Source of the DNA: Escherichia coli
GTDB lineage: Bacteria > Pseudomonadota > Gammaproteobacteria > Enterobacterales > Enterobacteriaceae
Length of the DNA: 42,323 nucleotides
NCBI RefSeq assembly: GCF_003334385.1
Contig: NZ_QOWN01000038.1
Direction: 5' to 3' (one strand)
Part shown: positions 2,393 through 5,700 of the stretch, piece by piece
Layout of the letters: the number at the start of each line of letters is the position of its first letter
How positions within the stretch are numbered: the first letter of the stretch is position 1
Notes under the pieces: generated by a model
Databases searched by the model: none
Told to the model about the DNA's origin: nothing
What the model saw: the letters and a program-made list of their open reading frames with translations, nothing else
Program-made: the position numbers and the translations under genes

Positions 2393-2754
2393 CATATTTC
2401 GCATTTGAATATTGGTCAGGATCTCACACCTGCTTCATGTGAAACTCTTCCCTGATGATTTCTGCCGGGCTACCGGCTAGTTCTCTTTCGCAGTTTGCCA
2501 GGCGGTATCGGTATTTTCAGGAGGAAAAGACTCGGCATGTTTGGGATTATTAAGCTGACAATTCATACGATTACGGGAATGTGGGTCAGTATTGTGTTGT
2601 TCAAATTGATGACGAATGGCTGGAGTGGTTTCTACTTTCAGTGCTGTGTACTAAGCCTGGTATTCCTGACGGTTAGCTGGTTGTTGAGTGGTGAATGGTT
2701 AGCAGGAAAGAGTAAGGCTGAACCTTCATGTTCAACCTTACTCTCATTTACACG

Positions 2755-5700
2755 TTACGCTTTTTTAAAGCGGGCAAAGAGATGTTCCACTACAACGAAA
2801 AAGACCGGAACGAAGTAAATTGCCAGCACTGTTGCGGCAAACATCCCGCCCATCACGCCGGTACCTACCGCGTTTTGCGCGCCAGAACCGGCACCATGAC
2901 TGATAACCAGCGGCAGCACGCCGAGAATAAAGGCCAGAGAGGTCATCAGGATTGGGCGTAAACGCATCCGCGCCGCTTCGATGATTGCCTCTATCGGCGT
3001 TTTCCCTTCTTTCTGCATCATCTCAACGGCAAATTCGACAATCAGGATGGCGTTTTTGGCGGAAAGCCCGATGGTGGTCAGCAAACCAACCTGGAAGTAG
3101 ACGTCATTACTTAAGCCGCGCAGATCGGTGGCCAGTAATGCGCCAACGACGCCTAACGGAACAACCAACATCACCGAGAACGGAATTGACCAGCTCTCAT
3201 AGAGTGCGGCGAGGGCGAGGAACACCACGACCAGTGAAATCGCATACAGCGCAGGAGCCTGATTTGAGGATAACGCTTCCTGATACGATAGTCCGGTCCA
3301 TGAGTAGCCGACGCCTGCCGGAAGTTTAGCGACCAGGTCTGCCATAAATTTCATGGCGTCACCGGTACTTTTCCCGGCCGCCGCTTCACCTAAAATCTCC
3401 ATTGACGGGATGCCGTTGTAGCGTTCCAGTCGCGGTGAACCATAGGTCCATTCGGTAGACGAGTAGGCAGAAAGCGGTGCCATCGTGCCAGAGGCGTTGC
3501 GTACATACCATTGGTTGATGTTATCCGGCAACATACGGAACGGCGTGCCTGCCTGGACATACACTTTTTTCACCCGCCCCTGGTTGAGGAAGTCGTTCAC
3601 GTAGCTGCTGCCGAAGGCGGTGGAAATTGTCTGGTTGATATCAGACAGCGCCACGCCCATCGCTTCAGCTTTCGCAGCGTTGACGTTCACTTTGAACATC
3701 GGCGTATCTTCCAGGCCGTTCGGGCGTACCCCGGTGACCTGATTCGGTGATTGCGCTGCCAGTGATAACAGCTCGTTTCGCGCCTGGGTTAGTTTTTCGT
3801 GCCCCAGGTTACCGTTGTCCAGCAGTTCCATATCAAAACCTGACGCGGTACCCAGTTCAGCCACCGCGGGTAAGTTGAACGGGAAGACGACGGCTTTATT
3901 GATACTGCTTAACGCAATCATTGCCCGCTGAATGATCGCGGTAACCGAGTTTTCCTCACCGACACGTTCAGACCACGGCTTGAGACTGATAAACGCCAGG
4001 CCGTTGTTTTGCCCCTGACCGCTGAAGCCAAAGCCGCCAACGGTAAACACCGACTGGACATTATCTTTCTCTTTAGTCAGATAATAATCCGTCACCTGTT
4101 GCAGCACTTTCGTGGTGTTAACCATGGTGGCACCGGAAGGTAACTGCGCGGTGGTCATAAATACCCCCTGATCCTCTTCTGGTAAGAAAGAGGTCGGCGT
4201 GCGCAGGAACAGCACCGCCATCCCGGCGCAAATCAGCAGGTAGACCACCATGTAGCGACCGGTACAACGCAACAGCGAGCGGGTGCTATCGGTATAGTGT
4301 TGAGTTGATTTTTCAAACAGCGTGTTGAAGCGTGCGAACAGGGCGTTAGGTTTGTGACCGCCTTCCGGCGCGGCTTTCAGAATGGTGGCGCACAGGGCAG
4401 GGGTCAGGCTCATTGCCACAAATACTGAAAGCAGCATGGAGGAGATCAGCGTGATGGAGAACTGGCGGTAGATCTCCCCGGTTGCACCGCTCATAAAGGC
4501 CATCGGCATAAACACTGCGGAAAGAACAACGGCAATACCGACCAGCGCACGTTGGATCTGCCCCATCGATTTATGCGTCGCTTCCTTCGGCGGTAGCTTA
4601 TCTTCCGCAATGACACGCTCGACGTTCTCCACCACCACGATGGCGTCATCCACCAGTAACCCTATCGCCAGCACCATCCCGAACATAGTCAACGTGTTGA
4701 TGGTGAAACCGACCGCCGACAAGATCGCAAACGTCCCGAGAATAACCACCGGTACGGCAATCGTCGGGATGATTGTGGCACGGAAATTCTGCAAAAACAG
4801 ATACATGACCAGGAAGACTAGGATGATAGCCTCAACCAGTGTTTTGAAAACTTCCTGAATAGAAATTTCGATAAACGGCGTGGTGTCGTAAGGATAAACC
4901 GTCTTCAGACTTGCCGGGAAATAGGCTGATAAGCGGTTCAGTTCCTCTTTGACTGCCCGCGAGGTATCCAGGGCGTTTGCTCCGGCAGCCAGTTTGATGG
5001 CGATCCCGGCAGCAGGTTTGCCGTTATAGCGCGCCACGGTGGAATAATCTTCCGCCCCAAGTTCGACGCGAGCGACATCACGCAGCAGCACTTGCGAACC
5101 ATCTTGCTGAACTTTCAACAGGATTTTGCCAAATTCTTCCGGCGTTTGCAGACGCGTCTGCACAATGATCGAGGCGTTTAGCTGCTGGTCTGCCGCCTGT
5201 GGCATGCCACCCAGTTGACCACCGGAAATCTGGTTGTTTTGCACCTTAATCTGGGAAATAACATCGGAAGGTACCAGGTTATATTTATTGAGTTTTTGCG
5301 GGTCCAGCCAGATACGCATGGCATACTCGGAACCAAAGAGTTGTACGCTACCAACGCCCGCGGTACGGCTTAGCGGGTCTTTGATATTAGACGCTACATA
5401 GTCCGCGATATCGTACTGGTTGAGGCTGCCGTTATCAGAAATAAACGCCGCTACCATCAGGATATTACTGCTCGACTTATCGACGCTAATCCCCTGCTGC
5501 TGCACTGCTTCAGGTAATGAAGGCATAGCGAGTTGCAGTTTATTTTGCACTTGAACCTGTGCGATATCAGGAGATGTCCCAGTCTCGAAGGTCAGAGTGA
5601 TAGAGGCATTGCCCGCCGCATCACTGGTTGAAGACATGTACATCAGGCCATCAAGCCCATTCATATTTTGCTCAATCACCTGAGTGACCGAGTCTTCTAC

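What the first reader, a model, noticed from the sequence alone, without database searches (positions are those of the whole stretch)
2537..2818. Candidate unannotated small membrane protein ORF with strong Shine-Dalgarno, converging into the mdtF 3' end
A canonical AGGAGG (2519-2524) lies 12 nt upstream of ATG 2537, opening a 93-codon frame with two hydrophobic segments (GMWVSIVLFKLMTNGWSGFYFQCCVLSLVFLTVSWLLSGEWLAG). It sits in the gadW-mdtF intergenic region on the strand opposite mdtF and overlaps the mdtF 3' end by 64 nt. The perfect SD makes it worth a look; the convergent overlap and some rare codons argue against it.
Basis: seen in the sequence. Interest (0 to 1): 0.3.

Follow-up and report, generated by a model that had tools for sequence, protein, structure and literature searches.

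The report
Acid-induced small membrane protein after gadW
The flagged frame is a real, evolutionarily conserved gene for a small two-helix inner-membrane protein just after the acid-resistance regulator gene gadW in E. coli; it has been published as sORF15 (and XECs371), is still missing from reference annotations, and has no known function.

Summary
AGGAGG lies at 2519-2524 and ATG at 2537. The frame has 93 codons, ends at 2818 and overlaps the mdtF 3' end by 64 nt. The window is the E. coli K-12 acid fitness island.

The ORF is not annotated in NC_000913.3 or by PGAP. It is exactly sORF15 of Schumacher et al. 2023, who reported a 16-fold rise in ribosome footprints and RNA at pH 4.4, a FLAG-tagged product and two predicted TM helices. 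It is also XECs371 in the O157:H7 Sakai RIBOseq study of 2017.

New here:
- The frame is intact and indel-free in seven Escherichia lineages, including E. albertii.
- Codons 1-57 are under purifying selection: dN/dS is 0.05-0.22 with dS up to 1.0, and 34 of 61 variable sites fall at third positions.
- The SD and ATG are invariant, while the upstream spacer is not.
- E. fergusonii has a 54-aa orthologue 20 nt after gadW that does not reach mdtF. The two-helix hairpin is therefore the core.
- The basic tail runs through the mdtF terminator hairpin and shares wobble positions with mdtF.

No family or structural match was found. The likely role, a membrane-embedded modulator within the acid response, is inferred only. 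Verdict: real gene, already known.

The parts
1664..2392 (+). gadW, an AraC-family acid-resistance regulator. It is the upstream cistron of the same transcription unit.
   Evidence: ORF; annotated as b3515 in NC_000913.3. Schumacher et al. place sORF15 in one transcription unit with gadX and gadW. In E. fergusonii the orthologous small ORF starts 20 nt after the gadW stop.
2393..2518 (+). Spacer, described in the literature as the gadW 3'UTR. It is poorly conserved and has indels. It contains a small conserved GC hairpin at 2464-2477 followed by a T-rich run.
   Evidence: Identity to K-12 falls to 0.74-0.76 in the distant species, with indels. The hairpin is flagged as terminator-like. Its stem is kept, partly through G-U-compatible changes, in six of the seven lineages; in L003 an 11-nt deletion removes part of the 3' arm. 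The two short ORFs reported here, sORF14 at 2439-2480 and the 2455-2553 frame, are not conserved as ORFs.
2519..2524 (+). Shine-Dalgarno AGGAGG, 12 nt before the start codon.
   Evidence: Seen. The block ATTTTCAGGAGGAAAA (2512-2527) is invariant in all seven Escherichia lineages, while the flanks vary. The SD sits in the loop of a weak, non-significant hairpin.
2537..2818 (+). Coding sequence of the 93-aa small membrane protein, also known as sORF15 and XECs371.
   Evidence: ORF. It is identical to Table S7 of PMC10746267. It is intact at 93 aa in seven Escherichia lineages and in five E. coli phylogroup representatives.
2537..2707 (+). Conserved core, codons 1-57. By hydropathy, TM1 is roughly residues 3-25 (2543-2611), the tight loop TNGWSG is residues 26-31, and TM2 is roughly residues 31-52 (2627-2692). 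The FxCC motif is at residues 34-37.
   Evidence: dN/dS is 0.05-0.22 with dS 0.16-1.0. Pooled pN/pS is 0.15 and variable columns by codon position are 17/10/34. The binomial P for the third-position excess is 2.7e-4. In neutral simulations of 20,000 draws per lineage, none reached as few amino-acid changes as observed for three lineages; for the fourth, L004, the fraction was 3.5e-4. The other five frames carry 12-48 stops. The AlphaFold2 model has helices 2-27 and 29-89 at mean pLDDT 64. The E. fergusonii 54-aa orthologue aligns over this part only.
2708..2745 (-). Terminator or 3' stabiliser hairpin of mdtF. It is read through by the small ORF as codons 58-70.
   Evidence: The fold is -26.3 kcal/mol on the minus strand (z -5.3) against -18.4 kcal/mol on the plus strand, which also lacks a U-tract. 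L005 carries a compensatory double change, and the E. albertii change is G-U compatible only on the minus strand. pN/pS of codons 58-72 is 0.23.
2755..2818 (+). The 64-nt convergent overlap of the small ORF tail (codons 73-93) with the last 21 sense codons and stop codon of mdtF.
   Evidence: Coordinates. All 5 variable columns lie at third positions shared by both genes, and no amino acid changes. mdtF dN/dS is about 0.01, so conservation of the tail here could follow from mdtF alone.
2755..5868 (-). mdtF, the RND efflux permease and the convergent neighbour.

Best explanation
The ORF at 2537-2818 is a genuine protein-coding gene and the last cistron of the gadX-gadW transcription unit of the acid fitness island.

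Shown:
- It is translated from ATG 2537 using the conserved AGGAGG.
- It is induced about 16-fold at the RNA and ribosome-footprint level at pH 4.4.
- Its first ~55 residues are kept by purifying selection throughout the genus Escherichia.

Inferred from sequence: the product is a 93-aa inner-membrane helical hairpin. The N-terminus is cytoplasmic. The two TM helices are joined by an invariant 6-residue periplasmic turn, TNGWSG. A conserved CC pair sits near the outer end of TM2. The C-terminal tail carries a net charge of +8 and is cytoplasmic. The tail is a clade-specific extension. It runs over the mdtF terminator hairpin and 64 nt of mdtF, in the antiparallel frame where both genes share wobble positions. 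E. fergusonii makes only the 54-aa core.

Inferred mechanism, not tested: like other bacterial small membrane proteins, it acts by binding within the membrane to a larger membrane protein of the acid response and modulating it. Candidate partners are the adjacent MdtEF-TolC pump, the GadC antiporter, or a sensor kinase, as SafA does for PhoQ.
For: - Identity with the published sORF15: the coordinates and sequence match. Ribo-seq log2FC is +4.2 (padj 1e-38) and RNA log2FC is +4.0 at pH 4.4 versus 7.6. A 3xFLAG product was detected. DeepTMHMM predicts two TM helices.
- Independent RIBOseq detection in O157:H7 Sakai, where it is predicted to be an inner-membrane protein with 2 TM helices.
- No indel or stop in seven Escherichia lineages.
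- dN/dS of the core is 0.05-0.22, comparable to gadW at 0.03-0.11. Third-position bias is 34 of 61 variable sites. All other frames are closed.
- Codons -14 to -1 show no periodicity and carry radical changes, while the SD and ATG are invariant.
- Present at >=95% identity in 5,414 of 5,426 complete E. coli genomes. The frame was confirmed intact in the five diverse strains whose sequences were read.
- The E. fergusonii orthologue is 54 aa, lies 20 nt after gadW, and keeps the GIIKL and GWSGFxFxCC motifs.
- The tail has a net charge of +8.
- The hairpin is stronger on the mdtF strand, and no plus-strand intrinsic terminator was found between 2700 and 4500.
Against: - No functional data exist. 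The published tag experiment used an arabinose-induced plasmid, not the native locus.
- The SD-to-ATG spacing of 12 nt is longer than optimal.
- No partner, phenotype or homology to any characterised small protein is known. Pfam, NCBIfam and PDB gave nothing.
- The AlphaFold2 model is of low confidence, with mean pLDDT 64.
- Conservation of the tail (codons 58-93) can be explained by the mdtF terminator and mdtF coding constraint, so it says nothing about a function for the tail.
- The transcript 3' end is unmapped here. If the plus-strand RNA ended at the hairpin, the full 93-aa product would not be made from it.
- Rare natural IS insertions in the ORF show it is dispensable in some strains.
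Confidence: 0.85

Rival explanations
1. The ORF is translated, but only as a by-product of ribosomes loading on a chance SD in the long gadW 3'UTR. The peptide itself has no function.
For: - AGGAGG plus ATG is not rarer than chance in this window.
- Other ribosome-occupied short frames reported in the same spacer, sORF14 and XECs372, are not conserved as ORFs.
- The gene is ignored by PGAP and EcoCyc.
- IS insertions are tolerated in two strains.
Against: - dN/dS of the core is 0.05-0.22 at dS up to 1.0, with third-position bias, no indels, and invariant SD and ATG in seven lineages.
- A recognisable orthologue persists in E. fergusonii at 49% identity.
- Neutral simulation gives 18-21 expected amino-acid changes, against 6-12 observed.
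Confidence: 0.04
2. The conservation reflects an RNA-level function rather than a protein. The region would act as a gadW 3'UTR element, or as an antisense partner of the mdtF 3' end that controls mRNA stability of the convergent gadE-mdtEF and gadXW transcripts.
For: - The two transcription units must overlap by at least about 110 nt (2708-2818) if the ORF is fully transcribed.
- Both are induced under the same conditions.
- The hairpin at 2708-2745 shows compensatory change.
- The neighbouring GadY/gadXW system is a known antisense-processing case (and established knowledge).
Against: - RNA structure does not produce three-nucleotide periodicity or a single open frame.
- Folding of the start region is not better than shuffles.
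- In E. fergusonii the ORF is kept, but the overlap with mdtF is absent and the hairpin is a different sequence.
- An RNA role could still exist in addition to coding.
Confidence: 0.04
3. It is a type I toxin-like hydrophobic peptide. Its expression would be held in check by the complementary 3' end of the mdtF mRNA.
For: - It is a small, very hydrophobic protein with a basic tail.
- A convergent transcript overlaps its 3' end.
- No family assignment was found.
Against: - Two TM helices and 93 aa are atypical for type I toxins.
- It is co-transcribed with regulators and induced 16-fold in cells that survive the treatment.
- One hour of arabinose-driven overexpression gave a detectable product, and no toxicity was reported.
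- E. fergusonii lacks the antisense overlap.
- It is a single copy, stably syntenic and chromosomal, and under ordinary purifying selection.
Confidence: 0.03

Closest known systems
sORF15 (Schumacher et al. 2023, mSystems, PMC10746267), also listed as XECs371 (Huecker et al. 2017, PLoS One, PMC5597208)
   Same: It is the same locus. The coordinates are NC_000913.3:3663464-3663745(-) and the 93-aa sequence is identical. The published work reports acid induction, two predicted TM helices and a FLAG-tagged product. The Sakai entry covers the same frame.
   Different: - XECs371 was given a longer, 118-aa form from a non-canonical upstream start. The upstream codons show no coding signature.
- The published homology statements (hits in Vibrio, Klebsiella, Enterococcus and Staphylococcus at >80-100% identity) look like mislabelled E. 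coli sequence. An exhaustive HMM search found the family only at this Escherichia locus.
- Selection analysis, the E. fergusonii short form, and the non-conservation of sORF14 are added here.
E. fergusonii ATCC 35469 54-aa 'hypothetical protein; putative exported protein' (P0050)
   Same: It is the orthologue by synteny, sitting between gadW and a convergent mdtF. It is 49% identical over 41 residues and keeps the GIIKL and GWSGFxFxCC motifs and the two hydrophobic helices.
   Different: It ends right after TM2. It has no basic tail and no overlap with mdtF (42-nt gap with its own GC-rich hairpin). It uses a GTG start, has no recognisable SD, and lies only 20 nt from the gadW stop.
SafA (B1500) of the safA-ydeO operon
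   Same: It works in a similar setting. It is a small inner-membrane protein encoded in one operon with an AraC-family regulator of the same acid-resistance network, and it is induced by acid signalling. This rests on established knowledge, not on a test here.
   Different: - No sequence similarity; there was no Pfam hit even at E<=10.
- SafA has one TM helix and a periplasmic C-terminal domain that contacts PhoQ. The protein here has two TM helices and only a 6-residue periplasmic turn, so any contact would be intramembrane or cytoplasmic.
- The gene order is reversed.
- No partner is known.
AcrZ (small protein partner of the RND pump AcrB)
   Same: It is a small hydrophobic inner-membrane protein. 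The gene here lies next to, and overlaps, an RND permease gene, and is co-induced with it. The authors of PMC10746267 suggest MdtF as a possible partner.
   Different: AcrZ is 49 aa with a single TM helix and is not encoded next to its pump. There is no homology and no binding evidence.
Type I toxins (Hok, TisB, Ldr, Ibs, ShoB)
   Same: Hydrophobic small protein with a complementary transcript over part of its mRNA.
   Different: It is longer, has two helices, is operonic with regulators, has no dedicated antisense sRNA and no reported toxicity. The overlap is absent in E. fergusonii.

Membership tests
sORF15 / XECs371 (published candidate gene) | Same genomic coordinates and same amino-acid sequence | tested here: met
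   Window 2537-2818 maps to NC_000913.3 complement(3663464..3663745) through the mdtF and gadW coordinates. Table S7 lists those coordinates and the identical 93-aa sequence. The Sakai entry contains the same sequence with one substitution.
Protein-coding gene under selection | Open frame kept without indels or stops in diverged relatives | tested here: met
   The ORF is 93 aa in seven Escherichia lineages, which share 75-96% GadW identity with K-12. It is also 93 aa in five diverse E. coli strains.
Protein-coding gene under selection | dN/dS well below 1 and excess of third-position substitutions, specific to this frame | tested here: met
   dN/dS is 0.05-0.22. Pooled pN/pS is 0.15-0.17 in this frame, depending on which lineages are pooled, against 0.9-2.2 in frames +1, +2, -1 and -2. 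Frame -0 shares the wobble position but has 21 stops. Variable columns by codon position are 17/10/34, P=2.7e-4.
Protein-coding gene under selection | Experimental evidence of translation | not testable with these tools
   Taken from the literature: Ribo-seq and a Western blot of a plasmid-borne 3xFLAG fusion, and RIBOseq in Sakai. No native-locus tag has been reported.
Small inner-membrane protein (two-TM helical hairpin) | Two hydrophobic helices long enough to span the membrane, with charge distribution consistent with a topology | tested here: met
   Hydropathy peaks fall at residues ~3-25 and ~31-52 and the tail has net charge +8. AlphaFold2 gives helices 2-27 and 29-89, at low confidence. 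Published DeepTMHMM and PSORTb predictions agree. Membrane localisation itself has not been measured.
SafA-like connector | Sequence membership in the SafA family | tested here: not met
   No Pfam or NCBIfam hit of any kind at E<=10.
SafA-like connector | Operon with an AraC-family acid-resistance regulator | tested here: met
   It lies directly downstream of gadW on the same strand in all lineages, and 20 nt downstream in E. fergusonii. Co-transcription is stated in PMC10746267.
SafA-like connector | Direct binding to and activation of a sensor kinase | not testable with these tools
   No data.
AcrZ-like RND pump partner | Sequence membership in the AcrZ family | tested here: not met
   No Pfam hit. 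No solved-structure relative; the best PDB E-value is 0.79, an unrelated transporter.
AcrZ-like RND pump partner | Physical association with the RND permease | not testable with these tools
   Only adjacency to, and co-induction with, mdtF is known.
Type I toxin-antitoxin | Dedicated antisense RNA and toxicity on expression | tested here: inconclusive
   The only complementary RNA is the mdtF 3' end, and that overlap is absent in E. fergusonii. No Rfam sRNA lies in 1200-3200 apart from GadY. Toxicity was not assayed; overexpression gave a detectable product.

The most novel reading that the evidence does not exclude
The small protein could be a so-far-unrecognised working component of the acid fitness island. 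One possibility is an AcrZ- or SafA-like intramembrane modulator that couples GadX/GadW output to a membrane machine such as MdtEF-TolC, GadC or a sensor kinase. In the E. coli clade, its extension across the mdtF terminator would additionally tie the gadXW and gadE-mdtEF mRNAs together through a 3'-3' overlap of at least 110 nt. This would be convergent coding with shared wobble positions that doubles as mutual antisense control.
Probability: 0.25. Interest if true: 0.55.

Novelty: already known. Interest (0 to 1): 0.3.

Why it matters
The acid fitness island is one of the most intensively studied regulatory loci of E. coli. Even so, the reference annotations (EcoCyc/RefSeq K-12 and PGAP) still lack a gene that is translated, strongly acid-induced, present in about 99.8% of complete E. 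coli genomes, and under purifying selection across the genus.

The comparative evidence gathered here moves sORF15 from 'Ribo-seq candidate' to 'selected gene'. It defines the roughly 55-residue two-helix core with its GWSGFxFxCC motif as the part to mutate. It shows that the neighbouring candidate sORF14 does not share that support. It also gives a clean design for a knockout: a start or early stop codon lying outside both gadW and mdtF.

The locus is also a tidy example of a 64-nt convergent gene overlap in the one antiparallel frame where both genes keep their wobble positions.

Tried and rejected
- Full-text search for the K-12 start coordinate gave only unrelated numbers.
- The supplement of Stringer et al. 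2021 (initiation-site profiling) has no entry for this start or peptide. The held supplements of the 3'-end map of Adams et al. 2021 contain nothing for gadW or these coordinates. The transcript 3' end therefore remains unmapped here.
- Pfam, NCBIfam and PDB sequence searches gave no hit.
- An exhaustive HMM search of 1.84 billion representatives gave only the same locus (fragments and chimeras) plus the E. fergusonii orthologue. A word-based search with that orthologue found only itself.
- The AlphaFold2 model has mean pLDDT 64, so no fold search was run on it.
- Database proteins of 76, 141 and other lengths suggested frameshift alleles in the tail. The 1-nt-deletion allele behind the 76-aa form has no exact match in 5,426 complete genomes. 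I treat these as rare variants or homopolymer sequencing errors, not as evidence that the tail is commonly lost.
- A longer N-terminus, from TTG 2495 or as in XECs371, was rejected. Codons -14 to -1 show no periodicity, carry radical changes, and TTG becomes TCG in one lineage.
- My own first by-eye reading of in-frame upstream stops was wrong and was replaced.
- Two slips were corrected. The mdtF control was out of frame and was redone. The codon-position labels for the overlap were off by one and were redone.
- No sigma-70 promoter match lies in front of the ORF, so an independent promoter is neither supported nor excluded.
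Full report
**What the window is.** The ORF list and sequence show gadX (472-1296, +), gadW (1664-2392, +), mdtF (2755-5868, -) and mdtE (5893-7050, -). Rfam finds GadY at 1308-1421. The 438-nt stretch around the finding is 100% identical to E. coli K-12 MG1655. The window is therefore the acid fitness island in reverse orientation, with K-12 coordinate = 3666282 minus window coordinate.

**Checking the observation.** AGGAGG is at 2519-2524 and ATG at 2537. The frame has 93 codons ending at TAA 2816-2818. It contains the quoted hydrophobic peptide and overlaps the mdtF 3' end by 64 nt. All of this is exactly as described.

- Nothing is annotated between mdtF and gadW in NC_000913.3, or in the PGAP annotation of the listed complete E. 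coli genomes among the ~5,400 that match.
- On sequence alone the feature is not remarkable. AGGAGG-N4-13-ATG occurs 3 times in the window against 1.8 expected. Spurious frames above 100 codons occur nearby.

**Comparative evidence.** A scan of species-representative genomes with GadW returned six further Escherichia loci, with GadW identity from 96% down to 75%. They include E. whittamii and E. albertii. I aligned the gadW-mdtF interval of all seven.

- The first ~115 nt after gadW are poorly conserved and carry indels.
- ATTTTCAGGAGGAAAA and the ATG are invariant.
- From the ATG to the stop there is not a single indel or stop codon, and every lineage encodes 93 aa.

For codons 1-57, which lie before the mdtF terminator:

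| Measure | Result |
|---|---|
| Pairwise dN/dS | 0.05-0.22 |
| dS | 0.16-1.0 |
| Variable columns by codon position | 17/10/34 |
| Binomial P for the third-position excess | 2.7e-4 |
| Stops in the other five frames | 12-48 |

- Frames +1, +2, -1 and -2 have pN/pS of 0.9-2.2.
- Random placement of the observed number of substitutions predicts 14-21 amino-acid changes, where 6-12 are seen. In three lineages no simulation out of 20,000 reached the observed value; in L004 the fraction was 3.5e-4.
- The neighbouring genes give dN/dS of 0.03-0.11 (gadW) and about 0.01 (mdtF) on the same genomes.
- The 14 codons upstream of the ATG show no periodicity (4/7/5) and carry radical changes. ATG 2537 is therefore the start.

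Within E. coli:

- The ORF region is present at >=95% identity in 5,414 of 5,426 complete genomes.
- Five strains from different lineages (O157:H7, clone D i14, N68, A32, 042) all encode 93 aa with at most two substitutions.
- The exact K-12 protein and the common PSRS allele are each found on at least 1,000 contigs. Some submitters call them 'hypothetical protein', including in Shigella flexneri and S. boydii.

This is the signature of a protein-coding gene under purifying selection.

**It is already in the literature.**

- Schumacher et al. [quoted passage not shown] Their Table S7 gives NC_000913.3:3663464-3663745(-) and the identical sequence.
- At pH 4.4 versus 7.6, ribosome footprints rise by log2 4.2 (padj 1e-38) and RNA by log2 4.0. 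Translation efficiency is unchanged.
- DeepTMHMM predicts two TM helices. A 3xFLAG fusion expressed from pBAD24 with 15 nt of native leader was detected by Western blot.
- They place it in one transcription unit with gadX and gadW. They speculate about GadC or MdtF as partners. No function was tested.
- The same frame is XECs371 among 465 RIBOseq-positive intergenic ORFs of O157:H7 Sakai (PMC5597208). There it has a longer non-canonical start and is predicted to be an inner-membrane protein with two TM helices.
- No follow-up under these names was found.

**Anatomy of the protein.**

- Hydropathy gives two hydrophobic helices at roughly residues 3-25 and 31-52. They are separated by the invariant turn TNGWSG.
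- The tail (residues 53-93) has net charge +8, while the loop is uncharged. By the positive-inside rule this implies an N-in/C-in hairpin with a minimal periplasmic turn.
- AlphaFold2 on the orthologue alignment gives helices 2-27 and 29-89 at low confidence, mean pLDDT 64.
- Invariant residues cluster in N27-F34, C36-C37 and L39-L41.

**Core versus tail.** An exhaustive profile search of 1.84 billion representative proteins found only this locus plus one diverged relative. That relative is a 54-aa protein of E. fergusonii ATCC 35469.

- Its gene starts 20 nt after the stop of the gadW orthologue (62% identity) and ends just after TM2.
- It is followed by its own GC-rich hairpin and a 42-nt gap before the convergent mdtF.
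- It shares 49% identity over 41 residues, including the GIIKL and GWSGFxFxCC motifs.
- The two-helix hairpin is therefore the conserved unit. Which state is ancestral cannot be decided here.

In the E. coli/E. albertii group the frame continues for 36 more codons.

- Codons 58-72 lie over a hairpin at 2708-2745. It folds at -26.3 kcal/mol on the mdtF strand, against -18.4 kcal/mol and no U-tract on the plus strand. It shows a compensatory double change in one lineage. This is the mdtF terminator.
- Codons 73-93 lie antisense to the last mdtF codons, in the frame where the third positions of both genes coincide. All five variable columns there are at these shared positions and no amino acid changes.
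- Given mdtF's dN/dS of 0.01, tail conservation in the overlap could follow from mdtF alone and says nothing about a function for the tail.
- Database proteins suggesting frameshifted tails are not reproduced in complete genomes. The 1-nt-deletion allele has no exact match.

**Expression logic.**

- No sigma-70-like promoter precedes the ORF.
- The spacer contains a small conserved GC hairpin with a T-rich tail at 2464-2477. It may attenuate read-through from gadW.
- No intrinsic terminator is predicted on the plus strand between 2700 and 4500. The transcript probably runs some distance antisense into mdtF before termination.
- That implies at least about 110 nt of complementarity between the 3' ends of the gadXW-sORF15 and gadE-mdtEF mRNAs, which are induced together. 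Whether this has regulatory consequences is speculation.

**Mechanism.**

- Shown: the gene is real, translated, acid-induced and selected, and its product is predicted to be a membrane hairpin.
- Inferred: it acts as other bacterial small membrane proteins do, by binding a larger membrane protein within the bilayer.
- The closest functional analogies are SafA and AcrZ. SafA is a small membrane protein co-operonic with the AraC-family acid regulator YdeO and activates PhoQ. AcrZ is a partner of the RND pump AcrB.
- Membership in either family is excluded at the sequence level.
- The architecture also differs from both: two helices and a six-residue periplasmic turn.
- I put about 0.85 on 'functional membrane-protein gene of the gadXW unit' and only about 0.25 on any specific partner model.

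**Rivals.**

- Functionless translation of a 3'UTR frame is contradicted by the selection signal.
- An RNA-only function cannot explain the three-nucleotide periodicity, the single open frame, or the persistence of the ORF in E. fergusonii without the overlap.
- A type I toxin is unlikely, given the size, the operon context, induction in surviving cells, and tolerated overexpression.

**Verdict.** The finding is already known in the literature, although it is absent from reference annotation. What this work adds:

- genus-wide evidence of purifying selection;
- delimitation of the core from the clade-specific tail;
- the shared-wobble geometry of the overlap;
- the negative result for the neighbouring candidates sORF14 and XECs372.

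Interest is modest.

Noticed in passing
window 2439-2480: sORF14, a 13-aa candidate reported in the same paper as sORF15, is not conserved as an ORF. Its start is GTA in one lineage. The homologous frames run 6 to more than 50 codons because of indels and loss of the stop.
   Followed up: yes
window 2455-2553: This 32-aa frame overlaps the SD and start of the gene. It is 99 nt and lies in the same spacer as XECs372 of the Sakai RIBOseq study, which those authors classed as 'pseudo'; I did not map the Sakai coordinates to confirm they are the same frame. Its ATG is ATT or ATC in four of seven lineages and its length varies. The reported ribosome density there may simply be the initiation region of the real gene.
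   Followed up: partly
window 2464-2486: A small GC hairpin, GCCGG-GCTA-CCGGC, followed by a T-rich run lies in the gadW 3'UTR. The stem is kept, with G-U-compatible changes, in six of seven lineages; in L003 an 11-nt deletion removes part of the 3' arm and the following run. It is flagged as terminator-like and may attenuate read-through from gadW into the small gene. It is absent in E. fergusonii, where the spacer is only 20 nt.
   Followed up: partly
L008 (E. coli O121 strain 201805972) about 2990-3001; L015 (strain SW070912) 1182-2410: These are natural knockouts. An IS66 element is inserted at about codon 14 of the small ORF in an O121 strain. An IS3-family element is inserted at about codon 40 in a wastewater isolate. 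mdtF and gadW remain annotated as intact in the latter.
   Followed up: partly
window about 2741 (convergent mdtF/gadW spacer): Genomic SELEX (PMC5493296) lists a binding peak in the convergent mdtF/gadW spacer, where no promoter is expected, in two of its sigma-factor sections (heat-shock and extracytoplasmic). By my conversion of the older coordinate 3661646, the peak maps to about window 2741. It could mark an internal or antisense promoter relevant to the small gene. I found no convincing motif by eye.
   Followed up: no
window 1664-2818: The small ORF is in the same reading frame as gadW: 2537-1664 = 873, which is 3 x 291. Between them lie gadW's own stop codon (TGA, 2390-2392) and a second in-frame stop 27 codons upstream of ATG 2537. 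This is probably coincidental.
   Followed up: no
window 2755-2818: The 64-nt convergent overlap uses the antiparallel phase in which the third codon positions of the two genes coincide. This is the arrangement least costly to both. All five substitutions seen across seven lineages are synonymous in both genes.
   Followed up: yes
L014 (E. fergusonii ATCC 35469) 2400-7981: The E. fergusonii island is arranged differently on the gadW-proximal side. The GadX-like gene (49% identity) is divergent from gadW. It is followed by a histidine-phosphatase (AppA-like) gene and several small unannotated-family ORFs, rather than by gadA.
   Followed up: no
literature: Both papers report near-identical 'homologues' of this protein in Vibrio, Klebsiella, Salmonella, Enterococcus or Staphylococcus. 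An exhaustive HMM search finds the family only at the Escherichia locus. Those hits are most likely mislabelled or contaminated assemblies.
   Followed up: partly
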